Shown one piece after another: positions 2,595-37,616 of a stretch of 40,632 nt of DNA; position 1 is the first letter of the stretch; each line of letters starts with the position of its first letter. The notes under the pieces are model-generated. The model was given only the letters and a program-made list of their open reading frames with translations. It was not told the origin of the DNA and did not search any database. The DNA lies in IMG/VR virus record IMGVR_UViG_3300022918_000007, positions 1 to 40,632 of that record; one strand, given 5' to 3'. The position numbers and the translations under genes were made by a program. Origin of the DNA: a virus.

Positions 2595-2893
2595 AACATG
2601 ACTTTTTTGCCATTCACCTCCAACAGGAGAGAAAGATGAAGCTTGCGAATAACTGAAGACGGGATGCCATTCATACAGATCAGGACATTGCGGGTGAAAT
2701 TGTCGTAATGATTCGCGGCTTTCGGTTTCGCCACACTGGATGGTACCTGCTCGGATTTTTCAGGTTGCGAATACACTACTTCGGCGAATTCTCGAATTTT
2801 CCCGCCGGTGCCCCTCTTCTTATCGAAAGTGACAACCTTACAGGAGAACGGCTTCCCGGACTCTATTATCTTCAATGCTTCAGCAAGCTTCAT
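2591..2893 (-). CDS. Hypothetical protein, first gene after hairpin cassette A
   Basis: 100-aa ORF with a 4-nt overlap onto the portal candidate start. Its ATG is part of the conserved 49-bp cassette. Confidence 0.6.
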   Translation of the reverse strand: MKLAEALKIIESGKPFSCKVVTFDKKRGTGGKIREFAEVVYSQPEKSEQVPSSVAKPKAANHYDNFTRNVLICMNGIPSSVIRKLHLSLLLEVNGKKVML

Positions 2894-2939
2894 AAAGCAA
2901 AAATCCCCACTTGCGCGGGGATTCTATAGGACAGGAAAT
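2891..2939 (-). promoter_or_regulatory. Conserved 49-bp hairpin cassette, copy A (stem 2902-2908/2917-2923, U-tract, ATG)
   Basis: 45/49 identical to 17475-17523. Minus-strand RNA reads AUUUCCUGUCCUAUAG-AAUCCCC-GCGCAAGU-GGGGAUU-UUUGCUUU-AUG. Confidence 0.75.
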
Positions 2940-8677: not shown

Positions 8678-9111
8678 CGCTGAAATGTTTTTTTAATTTT
8701 ATGCAGAAAAACCTGCGCTGAAAAGCATTTTCCGAGAACGATGTTCATTGTAGGAACGAGCTTACCGTTATGGAAAACGATACCAGGAATCGGAAGACTG
8801 GAGTCAGAGAAATACTTTTCTGAATCATACTCTTCAGATATGTTGTCCGGACCGGCCGCGGCGATCATTTCCGCATACTCATCCTGGGTAGCGTGAACGC
8901 AATATTCCCCTTCCCATAGTATCCTTACTGCTTCCAATTCTTCAGATGTGAGCAGATTTTTTTTGCGGCGACCATCTTCGGCTTTTGCCTGGCGGCGGCG
9001 TAGTTCTCCACCAAGTAGAAGATCCAATTCCTGCAGCTCAGTGTAACTACAGGATGACAGGAATTGCTCAACAGTAATAGTGAGCGTGTATTGTTTATTA
9101 AGAGTTGGCAT
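8674..9111 (-). CDS. Hypothetical protein
   Basis: 145-aa ORF with translationally coupled overlaps. Confidence 0.5.
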   Translation of the reverse strand: MPTLNKQYTLTITVEQFLSSCSYTELQELDLLLGGELRRRQAKAEDGRRKKNLLTSEELEAVRILWEGEYCVHATQDEYAEMIAAAGPDNISEEYDSEKYFSDSSLPIPGIVFHNGKLVPTMNIVLGKCFSAQVFLHKIKKTFQR

Positions 9112-9826
9112 GGCAGGTGTTTTTAGTTAACTGAAGGAAAACTTCAAAGCAACATTGACGGCTACTGGCTGAAATGGCGGACGGGTTTAAGATTAGTTTC
9201 CCTCCCCGGAACAGAATTCCAGTGCAGCCGATCATTTTAATTGGATATCCGTTTAGTCGAGAGTCATCAATTATTTGTTGATATTGTTCGACTGTCCCGC
9301 CAATGAAGTAATCACCATCACGGAGTTGTATGTTCCAACGCGCAATTCGTACAGCGATTAGCGGAAAAGAATAAACAGAGTAAGGCAAAACTTCCAGGAA
9401 GTCAGCCATTGTATCCCAGTAGTGGCCACAGGAGTTTGGAATATCACCGATTTCTTTGACAAGATCAGGATTGTTTTCCGGATCCATACGTAAGAATCCT
9501 GTCTGTAAAAACAAAGCGTCGCTTTCACTATAAGATAAACTCTCTGTTACTTCGTCCAAGATTGCAAAATCGATATTCAGACCACGCATGGATGAATTTC
9601 CTATAGCCAAAGTTTTCGTTTGTGTAGATTGATGTTCATGCTTAAAAAGCAAGTTCAGTTGTAAACAAAGCTCTTCCCCAAAGACCTTCCTCATGAAATC
9701 ATTATGTGCCATATCTAAAATCGCTCTCATAAAGGCGAGGATATCCTCATCGAATGTAAGCCTGGCCGCATGTCCAACAAGGCTATCTTCCTTGCGTAGC
9801 TCTTGCATTAATTCTTGATGGTTCAT
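9098..9826 (-). CDS. Hypothetical protein
   Basis: 242-aa ORF with no recognised motif. Confidence 0.55.
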   Translation of the reverse strand: MNHQELMQELRKEDSLVGHAARLTFDEDILAFMRAILDMAHNDFMRKVFGEELCLQLNLLFKHEHQSTQTKTLAIGNSSMRGLNIDFAILDEVTESLSYSESDALFLQTGFLRMDPENNPDLVKEIGDIPNSCGHYWDTMADFLEVLPYSVYSFPLIAVRIARWNIQLRDGDYFIGGTVEQYQQIIDDSRLNGYPIKMIGCTGILFRGGKLILNPSAISASSRQCCFEVFLQLTKNTCHANS

Positions 9827-10093: not shown

Positions 10094-10585
10094 TTAACGG
10101 TGCTGGAGTTGCTTTTTTTTCAATTCAATGGACCGCTGCTGCCGACTGACCTCGAGCTGAACAGACACGGAATTGCGTTCGGTTACTTTATCCAGGAAAT
10201 CTGGGTGAGTGGTGTTATTTAATATCCAGTCAGTCAGCGTTGCATGCTTCGAAAGCAGGTCGTTGTAGATGCGCTCAGGGCTTGTGCCTGAGGAAAGTGT
10301 CCTTCCCTTTAATCGGTTCACCTGTAGAATGTTTCTAGCTATAGCTGCGGCCTCTAAGTCGAAGTTTTTAATGAGCGTGAACCCTGAATGCTGATTGCCG
10401 GAAGATAATGGCGCACCGTAGTCCAGCCTTAATGAGACAAGATCGCCGGCCAGCGTGTGGACCGAATAAGATTTTCCGGGAATAGCTTCCCGAACTTTAG
10501 TATGCAAGTTGTTTCTGGACAGTGCTCCAGGGAACTGTTGAATTGCTTCAACAATAACTTTTAAACGATCGTATCTGTTACTCAT
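10094..10585 (-). CDS. Putative winged-helix (HTH_11/YafY-like) DNA-binding regulator, first gene of the accessory block
   Basis: Start moved to the internal ATG at 10585 (MSNRYDRLKVIVEAIQQ...), because the listed N-terminus MFLFCFFFVSF is a translation of the A-tract promoter repeats. The pattern RxDRLxxIxxxI...SxxTLxxDLxxLRxxxGAPL resembles HTH_11 regulators. Confidence 0.45.
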   Translation of the reverse strand: MSNRYDRLKVIVEAIQQFPGALSRNNLHTKVREAIPGKSYSVHTLAGDLVSLRLDYGAPLSSGNQHSGFTLIKNFDLEAAAIARNILQVNRLKGRTLSSGTSPERIYNDLLSKHATLTDWILNNTTHPDFLDKVTERNSVSVQLEVSRQQRSIELKKKQLQHR

Positions 10586-10600
10586 TGGAAATGTTTTGCC

Positions 10601-10656
10601 CAAAAGTAGAATAAAAGAAACAAAAAAGAAACAAAAAAGAAACAAAAAGGAAACAC
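10601..10656 (-). promoter_or_regulatory. Promoter with a TACTTTTG -7 box (10601-10608) and four GAAAC units phased at 11 bp
   Basis: The minus strand reads GTGTTTCCTTTTTGTTTCTTTTTTGTTTCTTTTTTGTTTCTTTTATTCTACTTTTG, then 15 nt, then ATG. It matches the Bacteroidota TAnnTTTG consensus and is near-identical to 37126-37180. Confidence 0.65.
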
Positions 10657-10827
10657 TTTTGGTAATTTGATGGAAATTCTCAAAATGAAAAGGCTTTATA
10701 ATTGTGTTACAACCCTTTAAATCCGGTGGATTCGATAAAAAATATCAAAATCAAAGAGTAACGCGCGTCTATGGGTGTGACGATTTGTTTAAACAATTGG
10801 TACAGTTTTCAGGATATGTGTGGGGGG

Positions 10828-15052: not shown

Positions 15053-15075
15053 AAAAGGGGGAGAAGATCTCCCCC
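15053..15075 (-). terminator. Intrinsic terminator after the capsid candidate
   Basis: The minus strand reads GGGGGAGA-UCU-UCUCCCCC followed by UUUUG. Perfect 8-bp stem at 15057-15075. Confidence 0.7.
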
Positions 15076-16223: not shown

Positions 16224-17477
16224 TTAGACCTTTCCGAGATCTGCGTCCAGTTTGGCCCACATAGGATCATTGGGATCCTCCCAGCTGGCCAGTACCTTTC
16301 CGTCCCCGGAAACGATTGGCTTATCTTCAGCTGCAGCTCCAGGCTTAGCGCCGATGATATCCACTTCGGCTTTCAGTGTAGATAGGCCTGTTTTAAGCTC
16401 TGTAACGCTTGCGGTTATCCCGGCAAGTCCTGCTGCCACCGCATTGGTAACAGCTGCAGAGATCTGCTCAGTTGTTAATGCCGGTGATGTTGCTGCTTCA
16501 GGTCTGGAATCAGCAGAAGGGACCGTCAGGGCCGCATTCACTTTTTCCCAATCTTCTGCAGACATCGTTGTAGCATCGGTAACTTCTCGTCCGAGAATCG
16601 CCGAAATTTTTACGAATTGATCTTTCATTGATTTTTTATTTGTTTGTTTATTATTGCGTAGGAAATTGAAGCGCCAGCTCATATTTTTGATATTTGATTG
16701 GACATATTGAATAGTTTCGGCCATTGATTGAATGCCATCGATCAGCCCCAGGGCAAGCGCCTTGTCGGAAGTCATTATTTTGCCTGTAAAAACAGATTTG
16801 TCGACATCCGGACGTGCGCCGAGAACAGCACTGTGAAACACTTCGTTGATAGGGTCAAGAATGCTCGTTCTCATCAACTCGTATTTTCCCTTCAGTGCTT
16901 CAGTGAACTCGAGATTTTTTTCAGTGGATTTTGTAGCGTTGATGATGTGGGTAACCATTGGCTGCTCAACGCTCGGATTAGCCGCGCGAAAAGAAGACAG
17001 CGTTCCGATAGATCCGACCAGGTCGGTTGAAACAGAAGCAAAGATTTTATCGGTCTGAGATGCTATGTAGTAGCAAGCCGAGGCGCAGGTTCCGGAGTAG
17101 TAGGAAACAATTGGTTTGGAGAAGTTCTGAATAGCGATTGCAACGTTTGGCATATAAGATGCCTCACCGCCGCCTGAGTCGAGATCCAGGATAACGGAGT
17201 GGATTGTAGGATCCTGGTCAAGTACCTGGAGCAGCGAAACGAAGCTCTTCATACCCATGTCGCCGCAGTTATCGTGCTTCATGATCACGCCGGTGATCGA
17301 CACTATCGCCGTTTTACCGCCGGCATCGGCAGCATGCGTGGTTGATGACTTGGAGGATACGTGTGTAAGGTCGACAGTTTCGCCCGCTAAGATTCTCTCA
17401 ACGATCGGCGCAAGTGATAGAGCGTAAGACTCATCAATTGCCCAGGTTCCCCTTAGAATGGAATGCAACAAATTCAT
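16224..17477 (-). CDS. S49 (SppA/ClpP-fold) prohead protease with a scaffold-like C-terminal extension
   Basis: ILDLDSGGGEA and GTCASACYYIAS motifs of S49 peptidases. The C-terminal ~140 aa are Ala-rich and helical. Confidence 0.75.
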   Translation of the reverse strand: MNLLHSILRGTWAIDESYALSLAPIVERILAGETVDLTHVSSKSSTTHAADAGGKTAIVSITGVIMKHDNCGDMGMKSFVSLLQVLDQDPTIHSVILDLDSGGGEASYMPNVAIAIQNFSKPIVSYYSGTCASACYYIASQTDKIFASVSTDLVGSIGTLSSFRAANPSVEQPMVTHIINATKSTEKNLEFTEALKGKYELMRTSILDPINEVFHSAVLGARPDVDKSVFTGKIMTSDKALALGLIDGIQSMAETIQYVQSNIKNMSWRFNFLRNNKQTNKKSMKDQFVKISAILGREVTDATTMSAEDWEKVNAALTVPSADSRPEAATSPALTTEQISAAVTNAVAAGLAGITASVTELKTGLSTLKAEVDIIGAKPGAAAEDKPIVSGDGKVLASWEDPNDPMWAKLDADLGKV

Positions 17478-17523
17478 GAAGCAAAAATCCCCACTCGCGC
17501 AGGGATTCTAAAGGACAGGAAAT
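17475..17523 (-). promoter_or_regulatory. Conserved 49-bp hairpin cassette, copy B (stem 17486-17492/17501-17507, U-tract, ATG of the protease)
   Basis: 45/49 identical to 2891-2939. The single stem substitution is a G-U wobble only in the minus-strand RNA. Confidence 0.75.
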
Positions 17524-17529
17524 AAGCGC

Positions 17530-18039
17530 CTAAATGAAGAGATTCAGCTGAGTAGCTCGTTCTTCCGGGGTTTCTTTTCTCATGACTGGAGGGTTGCGCC
17601 GGCGGTAGAACCTCTTCTGAACGGTATGGAGCGCCAGGACATCTTCCGGGATCTCGTAGTAATGGAGAAACTGAGCGATCGCAAGCTCAATGTTCTGTCC
17701 CATATCATGGCGGCGGTTGGCGAAATGGAAGAGCTCGTCATCGAAGAGCTCTTTCAGCACGGTGTCAATTCTTAATATGACATCCGGATCGATCGTAAAT
17801 TTTTTCTCCCTGGCCATTTCCGTACTCATCTCGATCTCGAGAATCGAATCGAATTTTGGATCAATCTTGAATTTCGGGCGGATGTAATCCTTTTTGATAG
17901 GTTCCAGGATCAACGCTGATATGTGACATGACTTGTTGGTGAGCTGGAAGGGCTCAACGCTTTTTTTCTTACCGATGTAGAGCTTCAGATAGTACTGAAT
18001 CGGAATTTTAACGGAGAACTTCATATAGATAGTAAGCAA
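17530..18039 (-). CDS. Hypothetical protein ending in a QLNLF clamp-binding-like motif
   Basis: 169-aa ORF (the alternative ATG at 18024 removes most of the overlap). The C-terminus is ERATQLNLFI. Confidence 0.55.
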   Translation of the reverse strand: MLTIYMKFSVKIPIQYYLKLYIGKKKSVEPFQLTNKSCHISALILEPIKKDYIRPKFKIDPKFDSILEIEMSTEMAREKKFTIDPDVILRIDTVLKELFDDELFHFANRRHDMGQNIELAIAQFLHYYEIPEDVLALHTVQKRFYRRRNPPVMRKETPEERATQLNLFI

Positions 18040-18325
18040 GTTGATCAGTTGATGAAGCGTTACTTCTGCTCATAACATGAGCAGTACATTCAGAAGCACG
18101 AACGCCTTCTGCCAGGTAAGCGAAGACATCCGGGATCAGATCAGATATCCGTACCAGGGCAATGAGCTGTACCTGGTACTCGATATCCGTTTCGGGATCG
18201 TAGATCGTTACGGGAATTGGGAAGTGAGATGAGTTTAGCCGGCCGGCTTTATACCGGGCAATATGGCTCACAAAACCACTTAGGATTTTAATAGTCGCGT
18301 TTGGGACAGGTATGACTTTTTCCAT
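18008..18325 (-). CDS. Hypothetical protein, first gene downstream of the repeat region
   Basis: 105-aa ORF. Confidence 0.5.
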   Translation of the reverse strand: MEKVIPVPNATIKILSGFVSHIARYKAGRLNSSHFPIPVTIYDPETDIEYQVQLIALVRISDLIPDVFAYLAEGVRASECTAHVMSRSNASSTDQLAYYLYEVLR

Positions 18326-18369
18326 TCTCCCACTAAATTATCTAAAATTGCCGATAAAAAACCATAAAT

Positions 18370-18387
18370 GGAACAAAAAGGAAACAC
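18370..18387 (-). promoter_or_regulatory. Partial copy of the GAAAC/A-tract promoter element
   Basis: The minus strand GTGTTTCCTTTTTGTTCC shares 17/18 positions with the 10639-10656 unit. It lies between the octamer array and the ATG at 18325. Confidence 0.45.
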
Positions 18388-18400
18388 ATTTGGGAAAAAC

Positions 18401-18674
18401 GTGCTAACGTGCTAACATTTTTCATTAAACTGAGCATCAGTGTAATTACAAAATAGAGTTTTTAGCCGAAATCGGCTGTAACCATAATGTTTATAAAGGT
18501 TAGCACGCAATTAACCATTCGTGCTACCACCGTGCTAACCGTGCTAACCGAAAAACAGGCGTGCTAACACCGTGCTAACGGCGTGCTAACAGGTGTATAT
18601 AGATGTATATTATTGATATATAGTATAATATATACTTACTACACCCTACGGTTAGCACGTTAGCACGTTAGCAC
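18401..18674. repeat. Array of 12 CGTGCTA(A/C)C octamers: 8 forward, 4 inverted
   Basis: GTGCTAAC at 18401, 18409, 18532, 18541, 18561, 18572 and 18583. GTGCTACC at 18521. GTTAGCAC at 18499, 18651, 18659 and 18667. Confidence 0.9.
18592..18645. other. AT-rich core (6/42 G+C) bracketed by the inverted hexamers GGTGTA/TACACC
   Basis: ggtgta-tatagatgtatattattgatatatagtataatatatacttac-tacacc, lying between the convergent octamer clusters. Confidence 0.8.
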
Positions 18675-18761
18675 GGTATTCGTGTCAAAATTAAAAACAC
18701 CATTTTTTAGTGTCCTATAAAAATTACTTTAGACTCCTCTTAAATTTTGGGATTTCAATAA

Positions 18762-25450: not shown

Positions 25451-25974
25451 AGATCCCAGTCGTTAGAGTTAAAGCAAGTGTCAAACGGCACATTCAACAG
25501 GATCGAAACCTGCCAGCCGGTATACGGCAATGCGCCGACCCTGGTGTGAGGAACGACCCGGACATTACTAATAACATCAAAAGCGCGCTTCAAGACGGGG
25601 TCGCCGTTCTTTGAGTCAAACTTCATTCTCGCCAGGATCTCGTTAACCACATTTTGGCAAGCATCCTTCGCCTGGCGCTCCTTAATCGTATCACCACTTT
25701 TGTAGGCCTGGAGAACGAAGAACATAACCTGGTGCTTATCCAACTCTTTAGCACTTCCCTTCTGCCAATCAATCGTTCGCACGTAGTCGATGAAGTGCAT
25801 GAACGGTCCTAATTTCGGATCGGGAAGATAGGTGGTGGTTGCAAGGAAGAAGTTTTCCAGGGTGGTACAGAAAAATTTCTGATGGTGGGGCTGAACGCCC
25901 ACGGCGTGCTTGATTTTCTTGTTCTGAATTGCGAGCGTTTCAAAATAGGATACCCACGTTGTGTAAAAAGCCAT
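25447..25974 (-). CDS. Hypothetical tail protein (distal-tail position)
   Basis: 175 aa with an ATGA overlap onto the 813-aa gene. It is the first tail gene after the moron island. Confidence 0.45.
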   Translation of the reverse strand: MAFYTTWVSYFETLAIQNKKIKHAVGVQPHHQKFFCTTLENFFLATTTYLPDPKLGPFMHFIDYVRTIDWQKGSAKELDKHQVMFFVLQAYKSGDTIKERQAKDACQNVVNEILARMKFDSKNGDPVLKRAFDVISNVRVVPHTRVGALPYTGWQVSILLNVPFDTCFNSNDWDL

Positions 25975-26023
25975 GAAGCGAATTTCTCAATACGCGCGCG
26001 GGCGCGAAAGGACAGCGATTACT

Positions 26024-26031
26024 TACCTTTG
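26024..26031 (+). promoter_or_regulatory. -7 box TACCTTTG for the plus-strand moron gene
   Basis: Exact TAnnTTTG match ending 15 nt upstream of the ATG at 26047. Confidence 0.5.
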
Positions 26032-26046
26032 TTCCAAAAAAAATCA

Positions 26047-26349
26047 ATGATTCATAACACAAGATATTTCGCGGATAAGGTGAAGGAAACCGGAAGGGTT
26101 CCAGTGCTCAATGCAGAGCAGTTTTCCCGAATGATGAATATTATCTTTCTCGAAGCCCAGGTTCAGGCGCTCAGATTGACAAAGGTAAAGGCTGACTATC
26201 AGACAAGTCACCGTGAACGATTTGAAGAAGTTGAGGATAAGCTGATCTTGTTGTTGAAAGGCAAACAGCCGCGCGAGCTCTACCAGGAAATGCTGGATCT
26301 TTCGGCCGCTCATCCGGATCCTGTAGAAGAACAAAAAAGCCCCGAATGA
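26047..26349 (+). CDS. Hypothetical 100-aa moron protein
   Basis: The internal ATG of listed ORF 25882..26349 is preceded by a promoter box. The stop codon lies in the loop of a terminator. Confidence 0.55.
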   Translation: MIHNTRYFADKVKETGRVPVLNAEQFSRMMNIIFLEAQVQALRLTKVKADYQTSHRERFEEVEDKLILLLKGKQPRELYQEMLDLSAAHPDPVEEQKSPE

Positions 26350-26360
26350 TCGGGGCTTTT
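26333..26360. terminator. Bidirectional intrinsic terminator
   Basis: aaaaaa-GCCCCGA-atga-TCGGGGC-tttt between convergent genes. Confidence 0.75.
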
Positions 26361-27513: not shown

Positions 27514-27542
27514 AAAAAGCCCCGATCACTCGGGGCTTTTTT
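27514..27542. terminator. Bidirectional intrinsic terminator
   Basis: aaaaa-GCCCCGA-tcac-TCGGGGC-tttttt. The stem sequence is the same as in the 26339-26356 terminator. Confidence 0.75.
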
Positions 27543-31717: not shown

Positions 31718-32104
31718 CTAGAGGTTGGGGTTTTCTAAAGCGTCAATAATATCCTGGACAATCATCTGAGCATATAACTCAGCGTAATCGAGATCGATCT
31801 GCTCGATGTGAGCATTAATCGCCTCACTTCTCCAGTGTTTCGGTGTCAGATCAACGCCTTTTCCAAAAACATTACTTGCTCCATTTTCCCAGAGAAAGCC
31901 GTACCACTCGTAAGAGAAAGTAAGGGAGTCAACCACGCTGTCTTTTGTTGTGACAGCACCTTTGAGTGAGTTGAGTAAAACGGACTTGTCGACAAGATCC
32001 ATCGCGTGAAGGTTCCTGGCCATGTCACCAAGCACCAAATCGATAGATTTCTTTCCAAGCTCCTTTGCTTTGGCTAGATCGTAATTGCTCCAGTCCAATT
32101 TCAT
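31718..32104 (-). CDS. Candidate tail assembly chaperone (by position)
   Basis: 128-aa acidic ORF, 2 nt upstream of the tape measure gene. Confidence 0.35.
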   Translation of the reverse strand: MKLDWSNYDLAKAKELGKKSIDLVLGDMARNLHAMDLVDKSVLLNSLKGAVTTKDSVVDSLTFSYEWYGFLWENGASNVFGKGVDLTPKHWRSEAINAHIEQIDLDYAELYAQMIVQDIIDALENPNL

Positions 32105-32143
32105 CTTGCGAAAATGGCTGTAAACGCATGCTCAGGAAAGGAC

Positions 32144-32173
32144 AAAAAAAAGCCCCGAACGAGCGTCCGGAGC
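32144..32173 (-). terminator. Strand-specific intrinsic terminator ending the early operon
   Basis: Minus-strand RNA has a 9-bp stem containing two G-U pairs (C-A mismatches on the plus strand), followed by U8. Confidence 0.7.
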
Positions 32174-32197
32174 TATCCTTTATGTCAGTAAAGAATG

Positions 32198-36819: not shown

Positions 36820-37106
36820 TAGCTTGCTTTGGCTTGTCGCCGATTGAACATCCTGGCTCTTGCTACTTTTCGTTCCTGGATCTTGAATAGCTCAAATGCA
36901 GCAGCCAGGATCGGTTCGGATGCATATTCCGCATTTAGGAGAGATTTCCGAATATAACCTTCTGTGTAATTTTCGCCATTTGATTTTTTAACCATTCCCT
37001 GAATCGTTCTTGCGTACTTTGGACCAAGCCCATTTCGCAACCGGGTAAAGTCCTGCACGCTCATTTCAGCGGCCTGCTTGTTCGATAGTTCTTGTTTTAA
37101 ACGCAT
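36819..37106 (-). CDS. Cro-like early regulator candidate (first gene of the leftward operon)
   Basis: 95-aa basic protein, divergent from the repressor gene. Called from position only. Confidence 0.4.
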   Translation of the reverse strand: MRLKQELSNKQAAEMSVQDFTRLRNGLGPKYARTIQGMVKKSNGENYTEGYIRKSLLNAEYASEPILAAAFELFKIQERKVARARMFNRRQAKAS

Positions 37107-37125
37107 GAGATATTTGTTGTTTGCT

Positions 37126-37180
37126 CAAAAGTAGAAAAAAAGTAGAAAAAAGAAACAAAAAAGAAACAAAAAAGAAACAC
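37126..37180 (-). promoter_or_regulatory. Early promoter with a TACTTTTG -7 box (37126-37133) and five units phased at 11 bp (GTAGA x2, GAAAC x3)
   Basis: The minus strand reads GTGTTTCTTTTTTGTTTCTTTTTTGTTTCTTTTTTCTACTTTTTTTCTACTTTTG, then 19 nt, then ATG. Confidence 0.65.
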
Positions 37181-37221
37181 AATTGATTCATTTTTGGGAT
37201 AAAAAGAAACGAAAAAGACAA

Positions 37222-37229
37222 TAACTTTG
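37222..37229 (+). promoter_or_regulatory. -7 box TAACTTTG for the repressor gene (very short leader)
   Basis: Exact TAnnTTTG match ending 12 nt before the ATG at 37242. Confidence 0.5.
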
Positions 37230-37241
37230 GGAAAAAATGAA

Positions 37242-37616
37242 ATGAAAGAAATTACACATAGAGGAAAGTGGTTGTCAGATCAGATAAAGGAAAAAGGAAT
37301 AGCGATTGACCTTATGGCTACAGCGCTAGGGATGGTTAGAACATCGATTTACAAGTGGCGAGACCAGCCATCGTTGAGCTTTAAGGTTATGAAAGCCGCC
37401 GCAGACTTCATTGAAATTGATCTTCGTGACCACTTCAGTAATGTTGATTATCTCTATGCTGAACCACTGCGAGTTTCCGATAAATACATTGAGCTACTGG
37501 AAAAACACTCTGCACTGCAGGAAAAATGTATACTTCAATCTGAGCAATTAGCTGAATATGAACGCCGTTTCGGCGTCTTACCGGGACTGTATCGGGACAG
37601 TAACGATAAAAAATAA
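37242..37616 (+). CDS. XRE/CI-like HTH repressor
   Basis: IDLMATALGMVRTSIYKWRDQPS helix-turn-helix with a coiled-coil C-terminus. ATG at 37242; the listed TTG start at 37227 lies inside the promoter box. Confidence 0.65.
   Translation: MKEITHRGKWLSDQIKEKGIAIDLMATALGMVRTSIYKWRDQPSLSFKVMKAAADFIEIDLRDHFSNVDYLYAEPLRVSDKYIELLEKHSALQEKCILQSEQLAEYERRFGVLPGLYRDSNDKK
37581..37603 (+). repeat. 23-bp perfect direct repeat, copy 1 (CCGGGACTGTATCGGGACAGTAA)
   Basis: Identical to 37741-37763. It encodes the repressor C-terminus PGLYRDS. Confidence 0.9.

What the first reader, a model, noticed from the sequence alone, without database searches (positions are those of the whole stretch)
17475..17523. The second copy of the hairpin cassette carries a strand-specific compensatory change and follows two small candidate late regulators
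Copy B differs from copy A at four positions. The only stem change turns a C-G pair into U-G in the minus-strand RNA, whereas it would be a C-A mismatch in the plus-strand RNA. This indicates the structure is selected at the RNA level on the coding strand. Two small genes (18008..18325 and 17530..18039), served by a partial early-type promoter element, lie upstream. The head morphogenesis genes lie downstream. This layout resembles the lambda Q / tR' logic, so one of the two small proteins may act on the cassette as an antiterminator or activator.
Basis: partly seen in the sequence, partly recalled or inferred. Interest (0 to 1): 0.65.

Follow-up and report, generated by a model that had tools for sequence, protein, structure and literature searches.

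The report
Phage late promoter with built-in terminator
The repeated "hairpin cassette" is most likely one of four late-gene promoters of a temperate Bacteroidota phage, here with a transcription terminator folded into it; the same promoter signature recurs in hundreds of related phages and appears undescribed.

Summary
Copy B (17473-17523, minus strand) differs from copy A (2889-2939) at 4 of 51 positions, and its one stem change gives a U·G wobble only in the coding-strand RNA. That single change is weak evidence, because almost any transition in the A/C-rich 5' arm would do the same.

The cassette is more than a hairpin. It carries TGTCCT at -40 to -35, then 23 nt, then AnnTTTG at -12 to -5, which is the host sigma-A "-7 box", then the ATG at +1. 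A matrix trained without the window finds exactly four sites in it. All four are on the gene strand, before the tape-measure, distal-tail/lysis, protease-capsid-terminase and portal gene blocks.

In about 50 related Bacteroidota prophages and phage contigs, 96 of 98 sites lie on the gene strand. Many directly follow a classic terminator.

In copies A and B the terminator-like hairpin sits inside the promoter spacer, and its U-tract doubles as the -7 box.

A lambda Q/tR' antitermination reading is poorly supported. The two small genes are conserved in the same position and remain candidate activators, but they match no known family and sit beside an iteron field that suggests other roles.

The parts
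17473..17523 (-). Cassette B: late-type promoter with embedded hairpin, ending at the ATG of the S49 protease gene
   Evidence: Scores 33.1 bits with a matrix trained without the window.
17512..17517 (-). TGTCCT box of cassette B (-40 to -35 relative to the A of the ATG)
   Evidence: This hexamer lies exactly 40 nt before an ORF-starting ATG in 51 of its 333 occurrences across the loci, against a background of about 2 per distance.
17484..17509 (-). Hairpin of cassette B: AGAAUCCCUGC-GCGA-GUGGGGAUUUU, 11 bp including two G·U pairs, GNRA loop
   Evidence: The spacer folds at -13.9 kcal/mol, z = -4.0 against shuffles.
17482..17489 (-). GATTTTTG: a -7-type box (-12 to -5) that is also the U-tract of the hairpin
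   Evidence: Logo: A-11 38/40, T-8 38/40, T-7 40/40, G-5 35/40. The host sigma-A box lies at -12 to -5 (PMC9723704).
16224..17477 (-). S49 prohead protease, the first gene of the head/packaging operon; its ATG is the predicted +1
   Evidence: Pfam PF01343, E = 5e-12.
2889..2939 (-). Cassette A: same promoter plus hairpin (hairpin 2900-2925, TGTCCT 2928-2933, ATG 2891-2893), before the 100-aa gene and the portal gene
   Evidence: 33.1 bits. The portal assignment is weak but the gene is 30% identical to the Leef_1 portal.
25972..26014 (-). Cassette C: same box, spacing and start, with a different GC-rich spacer; before the 175-aa gene, the distal tail genes and the lysin
   Evidence: 17.5 bits; shuffle maximum 13.2.
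32102..32174 (-). Cassette D: a classic terminator (32151-32174) directly followed by TGTCCT (32139-32144), -7 box CATTTTCG and ATG 32104; before the 128-aa gene and the tape-measure gene
   Evidence: 34.5 bits; tape measure.
17530..18024 (-). p164: conserved small protein of unknown function; candidate regulator or iteron-binding protein
   Evidence: Homologues at the same syntenic position in most loci. 641 clusters at 50% identity. No Pfam, PHROG, NCBIfam or PDB match. AlphaFold2 pLDDT 77. Matches Leef_1 gp39.
18008..18325 (-). p105: small protein overlapping the start of p164 by 17 nt; conserved only in closer relatives
   Evidence: The structure model is poor, pLDDT 52.
18326..18399 (-). 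Early-type promoter block upstream of p105
   Evidence: Repeat families D1, D2 and D9 shared with 10584-10668 and 37120-37236; sequence.
18400..18675 (.). Iteron field: 13 copies of GTTAGCACG in two opposed blocks around an AT-rich core
   Evidence: The architecture is conserved in L001, L002 and L004.

Best explanation
Cassette B is a phage late-gene promoter with an intrinsic terminator built into its spacer.

The promoter has two parts. One is a phage-family box, TGTCCT, at -40 to -35. The other is a host sigma-A-type -7 box, (G)AnnTTTG, at -12 to -5. This places the start site on the A of the ATG, so the first gene of each late operon would be translated from a leaderless mRNA.

Transcripts arriving from the upstream early-type operon (p105-p164 for copy B; the long early operon for copy A) form the hairpin. 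They would stop in the U-tract, which is the same TTTTTG as the -7 box, a few bases before the ATG. Late genes would then be expressed only by fresh initiation at the cassette.

Initiation probably needs a factor that reads TGTCCT in place of the host -33 TTTG element.

Shown: the motif, its spacing, its strand, its position before the four morphogenesis blocks, and its frequent link to terminators.

Inferred: that it is a promoter, the start site, late timing, actual termination, and dependence on an activator.
For: 1. TGTCCT lies exactly 40 nt before an ORF-starting ATG in 51 of 333 occurrences. Background is about 2 per distance, and control words reach at most 6.
2. The positions that were not used for selection match the host -7 box in sequence and place: A-11 38/40, T-8 38/40, T-7 40/40, G-5 35/40. 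PMC9723704 puts TAnnTTTG at -12 to -5.
3. The box-to-box spacer is rigid: 81 hits at 23 nt against 0-6 at 21, 22, 24 or 25 nt. The pair also occurs with a leader instead of an ATG in 40 of 81 cases, so the unit is a promoter and not a translation signal.
4. A matrix trained without the window gives four hits in it (34.5, 33.1, 33.1 and 17.5 bits; shuffle maximum 13.2). All four are on the gene strand at ORF starts before the virion gene blocks.
5. 96 of 98 sites in the fetched loci are on the gene strand.
6. Of 206 non-redundant sites, 80 directly follow a strong hairpin with a T-run, so transcription must restart there.
7. In-spacer hairpins of -12 kcal/mol or stronger occur in 6 of 220 sites against 0.2 expected. 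They have three unrelated stem sequences and all end at A-11 followed by TTTTTG. Four of the six have a co-directional ORF ending 5-14 nt upstream, which leaves no room for a separate terminator.
8. The terminator scan lists copy A.
9. The motif is present in the cultured relative Polaribacter phage Leef_1.
Against: - There are no transcript 5' or 3' ends for any of these phages, so the start site, the timing and the termination are all inferred.
- Leaderless mRNAs make up only about 5.5% of mRNAs in a Flavobacterium host.
- The hairpin class is a small minority, about 3% of sites. In L002 and L003 it sits after a divergent gene, where no co-directional transcript needs stopping.
- Exclusivity between an upstream terminator and a spacer hairpin is not statistically established.
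- A hairpin-forming, GC-rich spacer might hinder promoter function.
- Copy C scores only 17.5 bits.
Confidence: 0.7

Rival explanations
1. The cassette is a terminator or pause site in a long late transcript, and p105 or p164 is an antiterminator that lets RNA polymerase read through it into the head genes.
For: - The hairpin plus U-tract sits between the small genes and the head genes on the coding strand.
- The small genes are conserved in that position.
- They have an early-type promoter.
Against: - In relatives the terminator lies upstream of the conserved TGTCCT/-7 module. Most copies of the module have no hairpin.
- The conserved nucleotides are a DNA promoter signature with rigid spacing.
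- Four separate cassettes head four operons. A processive antiterminator would need only one promoter.
- No similarity to Q, N or other antiterminators was found.
Confidence: 0.08
2. The cassette is a late promoter as described, and p164 (alone or with p105) is the factor that reads TGTCCT and recruits or re-targets host sigma-A RNA polymerase. This would work like Mu C/Mor, P2 Ogr or T4 MotA/AsiA.
For: - By BLAST, only head and packaging genes, the 100-aa gene and the integrase are shared between the window and Leef_1. p164 joins that shared set at profile and structure level, and no other early-expressed gene does.
- p164 has an early-type promoter and lies directly before a late promoter.
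- Loci with strong p164 matches nearly all carry the motif, and loci with weak or no matches mostly lack it.
- The model begins strand-helix-helix, and the weak fold matches are to ribbon-helix-helix proteins and to an F-plasmid relaxosome accessory chain.
- No sigma-like or LuxR-like regulator is detectable elsewhere in the window.
Against: - The fold matches are not significant (E = 0.3-0.5).
- The co-occurrence is confounded by shared ancestry.
- The residues on the putative DNA-facing side of the N-terminal strand vary between lineages, while TGTCCT does not.
- In some loci the p164 gene itself lies behind a TGTCCT site.
- The adjacent iterons offer a different target.
Confidence: 0.3
3. 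p105 and p164 are not late regulators. They bind the adjacent GTTAGCACG iteron field and serve replication-origin, partition or autoregulatory functions. TGTCCT would then be read by a host factor or by another phage protein.
For: - Thirteen iterons with an AT-rich core lie directly upstream, and two abut the operon's promoter.
- The same layout occurs in L001, L002 and L004.
- Lineage-specific iterons sit upstream of p164 homologues in L011, L018 and L020. This pattern parallels the variable strand residues of p164.
Against: - There is no direct evidence of binding.
- Residue variation does not track iteron sequence cleanly: the window and L001 share the iteron but differ in those residues.
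- The two roles do not exclude each other.
Confidence: 0.3
4. The inverted repeat is a DNA operator for a dimeric repressor or activator, not an RNA terminator.
For: - It is a dyad located inside a promoter.
- In L002 and L003 it is kept where no co-directional upstream gene exists.
Against: - The same position holds hairpins with three unrelated stem sequences, each followed by the T-run. A sequence-specific protein would not tolerate that.
- The G·U pairs (G·T mismatches in DNA) break the DNA dyad but not the RNA stem.
- The loops are GNRA or UUCG types.
Confidence: 0.07

Closest known systems
Bacteroidota sigma-A promoters (-33 TTTG / -7 TAnnTTTG)
   Same: The -7 box has the same core (AnnTTTG) at the same place, -12 to -5. 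The window's own early promoters use TACTTTTG.
   Different: The upstream element is TGTCCT at -40 to -35 rather than TTTG near -33. Position -12 is G or C in 31 of 40 sites rather than T. About half of the sites put the ATG at +1.
Activator-dependent phage middle and late promoters (T4 MotA-box middle promoters with AsiA; Mu Mor/C; P2 Ogr)
   Same: A host-type downstream element is combined with a phage-specific upstream box that replaces the normal -35-type element. Several copies head the later operons. This comparison rests on my own knowledge of those systems.
   Different: No homologue of MotA, AsiA, Mor, C or Ogr was detected. The trans-factor is unknown. The box sequence, its position and the host phylum all differ.
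Lambda Q / PR' / tR' late antitermination
   Same: A small early-expressed gene lies directly upstream of the late genes, with a terminator-like hairpin between them.
   Different: There are four separate promoter cassettes rather than one promoter. In relatives the terminators lie upstream of the conserved element. No Q-like protein is present.
Intrinsic (factor-independent) terminators
   Same: A GC-rich stem, a tetraloop and a U-tract, with an A-tract upstream, placed 7-12 nt after a stop codon.
   Different: The terminator is embedded between the two elements of a promoter, and its U-tract doubles as the -7 box.
Polaribacter phage Leef_1 (Helgolandviridae)
   Same: It has the same gene order: p164 homologue gp39, then protease, capsid-position gene and terminase, then the 100-aa gene homologue, portal and adaptor. 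TGTCCTTTT boxes follow terminators.
   Different: Protein identity is only about 20-40%. Its -7 boxes are more degenerate, and some sites have leaders. The paper describing it does not mention promoters or terminators.

Membership tests
Bacteroidota sigma-A-type promoter | -7 box TAnnTTTG at -12 to -5 | tested here: met
   AnnTTTG is almost invariant at -11 to -5 relative to the ATG. Cassette B has GATTTTTG. The first T is replaced by G or C in most sites.
Bacteroidota sigma-A-type promoter | -33 element TTTG about 20 nt upstream of the -7 box | tested here: not met
   Positions -36 to -33 read C-T-W-T. The conserved element is TGTCCT at -40 to -35.
Bacteroidota sigma-A-type promoter | A mapped transcription start 5-7 nt downstream of the box | not testable with these tools
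   No transcript data are available.
Intrinsic terminator | A stable GC-rich stem-loop in the transcript | tested here: met
   An 11-bp stem. The spacer folds at -13.9 kcal/mol (B) and -16.8 kcal/mol (A), with z = -4.0 for B.
Intrinsic terminator | A U-tract directly 3' of the stem, on the transcribed strand only | tested here: met
   The stem is followed by AUUUUUGCUU on the minus strand. The plus strand has no T-run. Copy A passes the consensus scan. Copy B is absent from the scan's list, and its 8-nt tail has 4 T where the scan asks for 5.
Intrinsic terminator | Termination activity | not testable with these tools
   This needs Term-seq or in vitro transcription.
Lambda Q-type antitermination module | A Q-family protein | tested here: not met
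   p105 and p164 have no Pfam, PHROG or NCBIfam hits. p164 also has no PDB or Foldseek hits.
Lambda Q-type antitermination module | A single late promoter followed by a terminator that must be read through to reach all late genes | tested here: not met
   Four cassettes head four operons. In relatives the terminator precedes the conserved element.
Leaderless mRNA | AUG at the predicted transcription start | tested here: met
   True for all four window cassettes and for 41 of 81 motif sites in the loci. The 5' ends themselves were not tested.
Ribbon-helix-helix DNA-binding proteins (for p164) | An N-terminal strand-helix-helix fold with significant similarity to known members | tested here: inconclusive
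   The model shows strand 2-9, helix 11-21 and helix 34-44. The best matches have E = 0.3-0.5, and no sequence profile hit was found.

The most novel reading that the evidence does not exclude
A large, uncharacterised group of Bacteroidota siphophages and prophages (Helgolandviridae-like) may run its whole morphogenesis programme from one undescribed promoter class. That class pairs TGTCCT at -40 with a host -7 box and often yields leaderless mRNAs. It would be switched on by the equally uncharacterised p164 family, which re-targets host sigma-A RNA polymerase. Terminators abutting or embedded in the promoter would insulate late operons from early transcription.
Probability: 0.25. Interest if true: 0.75.

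Novelty: new variant of a known kind. Interest (0 to 1): 0.55.

Why it matters
Little is known about how Bacteroidota phages time their gene expression, although these phages are abundant in marine, freshwater and gut habitats.

A sharply defined promoter signature that is conserved across the family would be useful in three ways:
- It would allow late operons and gene starts to be annotated directly in such prophages and metagenomic contigs.
- It would give a switchable, insulated promoter part for Flavobacteriia, where genetic tools are scarce.
- It would point to a concrete, testable search for the factor that reads the box.

The terminator-inside-promoter layout also shows how compact phage genomes can merge two signals into about 40 nt.

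Tried and rejected
- Rfam (gathering threshold) found no RNA family anywhere in the window.
- Megablast of 20 kb against GenBank phages found nothing.
- A protein-pattern scan and an exact cassette scan of IMG/VR found no close relative.
- The word-index search with p164 alone found only itself.
- Pfam, PHROGs and NCBIfam gave no consistent hit for p105 or p164. PDB sequence profiles and Foldseek (PDB) gave none for p164.
- The single-sequence structure of p105 was too poor to use, pLDDT 52.
- The E. coli-type sigma-70 promoter scan is uninformative for this phylum.
- I tested whether the TGTCCT-to-ATG distance marks a translation or RNA element. I rejected this because the box pair keeps its 23-nt spacing in 40 of 81 sites that have no ATG at +1.
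- I looked for a sigma-like or LuxR-like regulator among 20 further window proteins and found none.
- I looked for double-sided covariation within the homologous hairpins (window A and B, L001, L002). Only one-sided wobble changes exist, all in the 5' arm, so classical covariation support is nil.
- Full-text searches found no paper describing the TGTCCT motif. This does not prove that none exists.
Full report
**What the window is.** The 40,632-base window ends in a 127-bp copy of its own start. It carries an integrase ORF that matches the annotated integrase of phage Leef_1, and almost all of its genes are on the minus strand. It therefore looks like a circularly assembled temperate phage genome. 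Nothing closely similar exists in GenBank phages or in IMG/VR. Homologues of its S49 prohead protease (about 40% identical) led to syntenic metagenomic contigs L001-L004. They also led to 42 prophage loci in GTDB genomes, nearly all in Bacteroidota and mostly Flavobacteriales such as Polaribacter, Tenacibaculum, Flavobacterium, Arenibacter and Aquimarina. The only cultured relative found is Polaribacter phage Leef_1 of the Helgolandviridae, which has the same gene order.

**Checking the observation.** Copy B (17473-17523) and copy A (2889-2939) match at 47 of 51 positions. On the minus strand both read TGTCCT-W-TAGAATCCC(C/T)GC-GC(A/G)A-GTGGGGATTTTTGCTT(T/C)ATG. The minus-strand RNA forms an 11-bp hairpin with a GNRA loop. 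The plus-strand RNA of B does not. The C-to-U change at 17501 does give U·G on the coding strand and C·A on the other strand.

As evidence for selection this change is weak. The 5' arm is rich in A and C and pairs with a 3' arm rich in G and U. Almost any transition in the 5' arm therefore gives a wobble pair on this strand. Among the homologous hairpins (window A and B, L001:855, L002:687) only such one-sided changes occur, and the 3' arm never varies. All four A/B differences fall where the family tolerates variation: -34 (W in the logo), a wobble in the stem, the N of GNRA, and -1.

**What the cassette really contains.** In the close relatives, the region before the protease gene has a separate, ordinary terminator. 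It is followed at once by TGTCCTWT, then 27 nt, then G(C/T)T(C/T)(C/T)ATG, with no hairpin. The region before their first distal-tail gene has TGTCCT plus an ATCCCCAC/GTGGGGAT hairpin like the window's. The conserved unit is therefore the box and its spacing, not the hairpin.

- Across the window and the loci fetched by then, TGTCCT lies exactly 40 nt before an ORF-starting ATG in 51 of 333 occurrences. Background is about 2 per distance, and control words reach at most 6.
- In 40 non-redundant sites the positions I did not select on are highly informative: A at -11 (38/40), T at -8 (38/40), T at -7 (40/40), T at -6 (30/40) and G at -5 (35/40). There is also a T-rich tract at -47 to -42.
- AnnTTTG at -12 to -5 is the sigma-A -7 box of Flavobacteria, in the position reported from genome-wide start-site mapping (PMC9723704). 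The predicted start is then the A of the ATG, which would make the mRNA leaderless. That paper finds leaderless mRNAs in about 5.5% of host transcripts.
- The distance between TGTCCT and the -7 box is rigid: 81 hits with a 23-nt spacer against 0-6 with 21, 22, 24 or 25 nt. In 40 of the 81 the box pair is followed by a leader rather than an ATG. This argues for a promoter rather than a translation signal.
- 96 of 98 sites lie on the strand of the structural genes.
In 46 of those, a second same-strand site lies within the short stretch that is stored.

**The window has four such sites.** A weight matrix trained only on non-window sites gives exactly four hits in the window, against a shuffle maximum of 13.2 bits. 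All four are on the minus strand at ORF starts:

| ATG position | Score (bits) | Genes that follow |
|---|---|---|
| 32104 | 34.5 | 128-aa gene, then the tape measure |
| 25974 | 17.5 | 175-aa gene, the large distal-tail proteins and the lysin |
| 17477 | 33.1 | S49 protease, capsid-position gene through large terminase |
| 2893 | 33.1 | 100-aa gene, portal, adaptor-like gene |

The four sites thus head all the virion and lysis blocks.

The early-type regions have a different architecture. These are 37106-37240 (the divergent switch region next to a repressor-like gene), 10595-10668, and the partial copy at 18326-18399. They carry 11-nt phased TTTCTTTTTTG repeats and a canonical TACTTTTG box followed by a leader. 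That contrast is the basis for calling the TGTCCT sites "late". The timing itself is inferred.

**The hairpin.** Of 206 non-redundant sites with enough flanking sequence, 80 are directly preceded by a strong hairpin with a T-run. In those, the upstream ORF ends a median of 55 nt away. Six of 220 sites instead carry a hairpin of -12 kcal/mol or stronger inside the spacer, against 0.2 expected from shuffled spacers (maximum 1 in 30 trials). These six fall into three sequence-unrelated stem families:
- ATCCCC(G/A)C...GTGGGGAT in the window, L001 and L002.
- AGCCGCC or GGTCGCC, loop TTCG, then GGCGGCT in L116 and L070.
- AGCCCGC...GCGGGCT in L155 and L158.

All of them end at A-11 followed by TTTTTG. 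In four of the six, a co-directional ORF stops 5-14 nt before TGTCCT.

A structure that recurs with unrelated sequences, with tetraloops of the GNRA or UUCG kind and a U-tract on the transcribed strand only, is what an intrinsic terminator looks like. A sequence-specific protein site would not look like this. My reading is that in compact intergenic regions the terminator has been moved into the promoter spacer and shares its U-tract with the -7 box. Early-type transcripts from the p105-p164 operon (copy B) or from the long early operon (copy A) would then end a few bases before the late ATG.

This part is supported but not proven. The class is rare. In L002 and L003 the hairpin follows a divergent gene. 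I could not show statistically that upstream terminators and spacer hairpins exclude each other.

The near-identity of A and B most likely reflects a recent copy or conversion between two promoters of this genome. No relative has this hairpin before its protease gene, whereas relatives do have it before the tail operon.

**The two small genes.** p105 (18008-18325) and p164 (probably 17530-18024) overlap by 17 nt. The pair recurs in the same place in all close relatives. With a profile, p164 homologues are found at the same syntenic position in most loci and in Leef_1 (gp39). The family has at least 641 clusters at 50% identity, all of them stand-alone proteins of about 150-210 aa.

It has no Pfam, PHROG, NCBIfam or PDB-sequence match. 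The AlphaFold2 model (pLDDT 77) starts strand-helix-helix. Its only non-family fold matches are insignificant, to ribbon-helix-helix proteins and to an F-plasmid relaxosome accessory chain whose identity I did not check. The p105 model was unusable. No sigma-like or LuxR-like protein is detectable elsewhere in the window. By BLAST, the window and Leef_1 share only head genes, the 100-aa gene and the integrase. p164 joins that set at profile level.

This is elimination, not evidence.

A competing clue lies directly upstream. Thirteen GTTAGCACG iterons sit in two opposed blocks around an AT-rich core, with two more at the operon's own promoter. The layout is conserved in L001, L002 and L004. It is replaced by lineage-specific iterons upstream of p164 homologues in L011, L018 and L020. 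The small proteins may bind these iterons instead, or as well.

**Against the lambda Q/tR' reading.** Four points count against it:
- The conserved element lies downstream of the terminators in relatives.
- Most copies have no hairpin.
- Four cassettes head four operons.
- There is no Q-like protein.

The layout works more like activator-dependent phage promoters that keep a host-type downstream element and swap the upstream one, such as T4 MotA-box, Mu Mor/C or P2 Ogr promoters. That comparison rests on my own knowledge of those systems. No membership is claimed, because no homologue was found.

**Novelty and limits.** In the searchable library I found no description of this motif. The paper that describes Leef_1 and the Helgolandviridae mentions neither promoters nor terminators. 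That is weak evidence of novelty. All functional statements (start site, timing, termination, activator) are inferences from sequence patterns. Transcript-end mapping in Leef_1 or in an inducible lysogen would settle them.

Noticed in passing
window 18400-18675: An iteron field with 13 copies of GTTAGCACG (12 exact). Three point one way, then an AT-rich core of about 60 nt follows, then a block pointing the other way. Two more abut the promoter of p105/p164. The layout is like a replication origin or an operator field. It is conserved in L001, L002 and L004, and different iterons sit upstream of p164 homologues in L011, L018 and L020.
   Followed up: partly
window 10595-10668 and 37120-37236 (partial copy 18326-18399): The early-type promoter regions carry 3-4 copies of TTTCTTTTTTG phased at 11 nt upstream of a canonical TACTTTTG -7 box. 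At 37106-37240 they form a divergent switch next to a repressor-like gene (37242-37616, plus strand).
   Followed up: partly
L009:17308, L046:16357, L018:16826, L020:15439, L021:17206, L011:14560, L130:6894: In other lineages an inverted repeat brackets the -7 box and includes the start codon, for example TTGCCAT-N9-ATGGCAA or CTTCCAT-N9-ATGGAAG, with changes on both sides between loci. Repeats of 7 bp or more occur in 8 of 142 sites against 1.9 expected. One possibility is that it hides the AUG in read-through transcripts while leaving the leaderless transcript translatable.
   Followed up: partly
window 2889-2939 vs 17473-17523; L001:855, L002:687: Hairpin-type cassettes sit before different operons in different phages: tail in L001 and L002, portal and protease in the window. 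This suggests that promoter cassettes are copied or converted between operons within a genome.
   Followed up: partly
L035:13669, L037:5742, L053:6973: A variant box, CGTCCT in place of TGTCCT, with the same spacing. It occurs in a Hymenobacter prophage, in a contig binned as Janthinobacterium, and in one close relative.
   Followed up: no
L010:7122-7541 and 8863-9369: A Tenacibaculum prophage carries two p164-family genes about 1.3 kb apart.
   Followed up: no
L048 (Leef_1) 30638, 10520, 1808: In the cultured phage Leef_1 the TGTCCTTTT boxes are sharp but the -7 boxes are degenerate, and some sites have leaders of 5-30 nt. The annotated start of gp04 (1878) may be 30 nt too far downstream, since an ATG lies at 1848.
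   Followed up: no
window 26047-26349 (+) and 25975-26046: A short plus-strand gene diverges from late cassette C. A bidirectional-looking terminator lies at 26335-26360, and a near copy lies at 27514-27541.
   Followed up: no
window 15057-15075: A strong terminator-like hairpin (GGGGGAGATCTTCTCCCCC followed by TTTTG) lies just after the capsid-position gene inside the head operon. It may set the ratio of capsid to downstream proteins.
   Followed up: no
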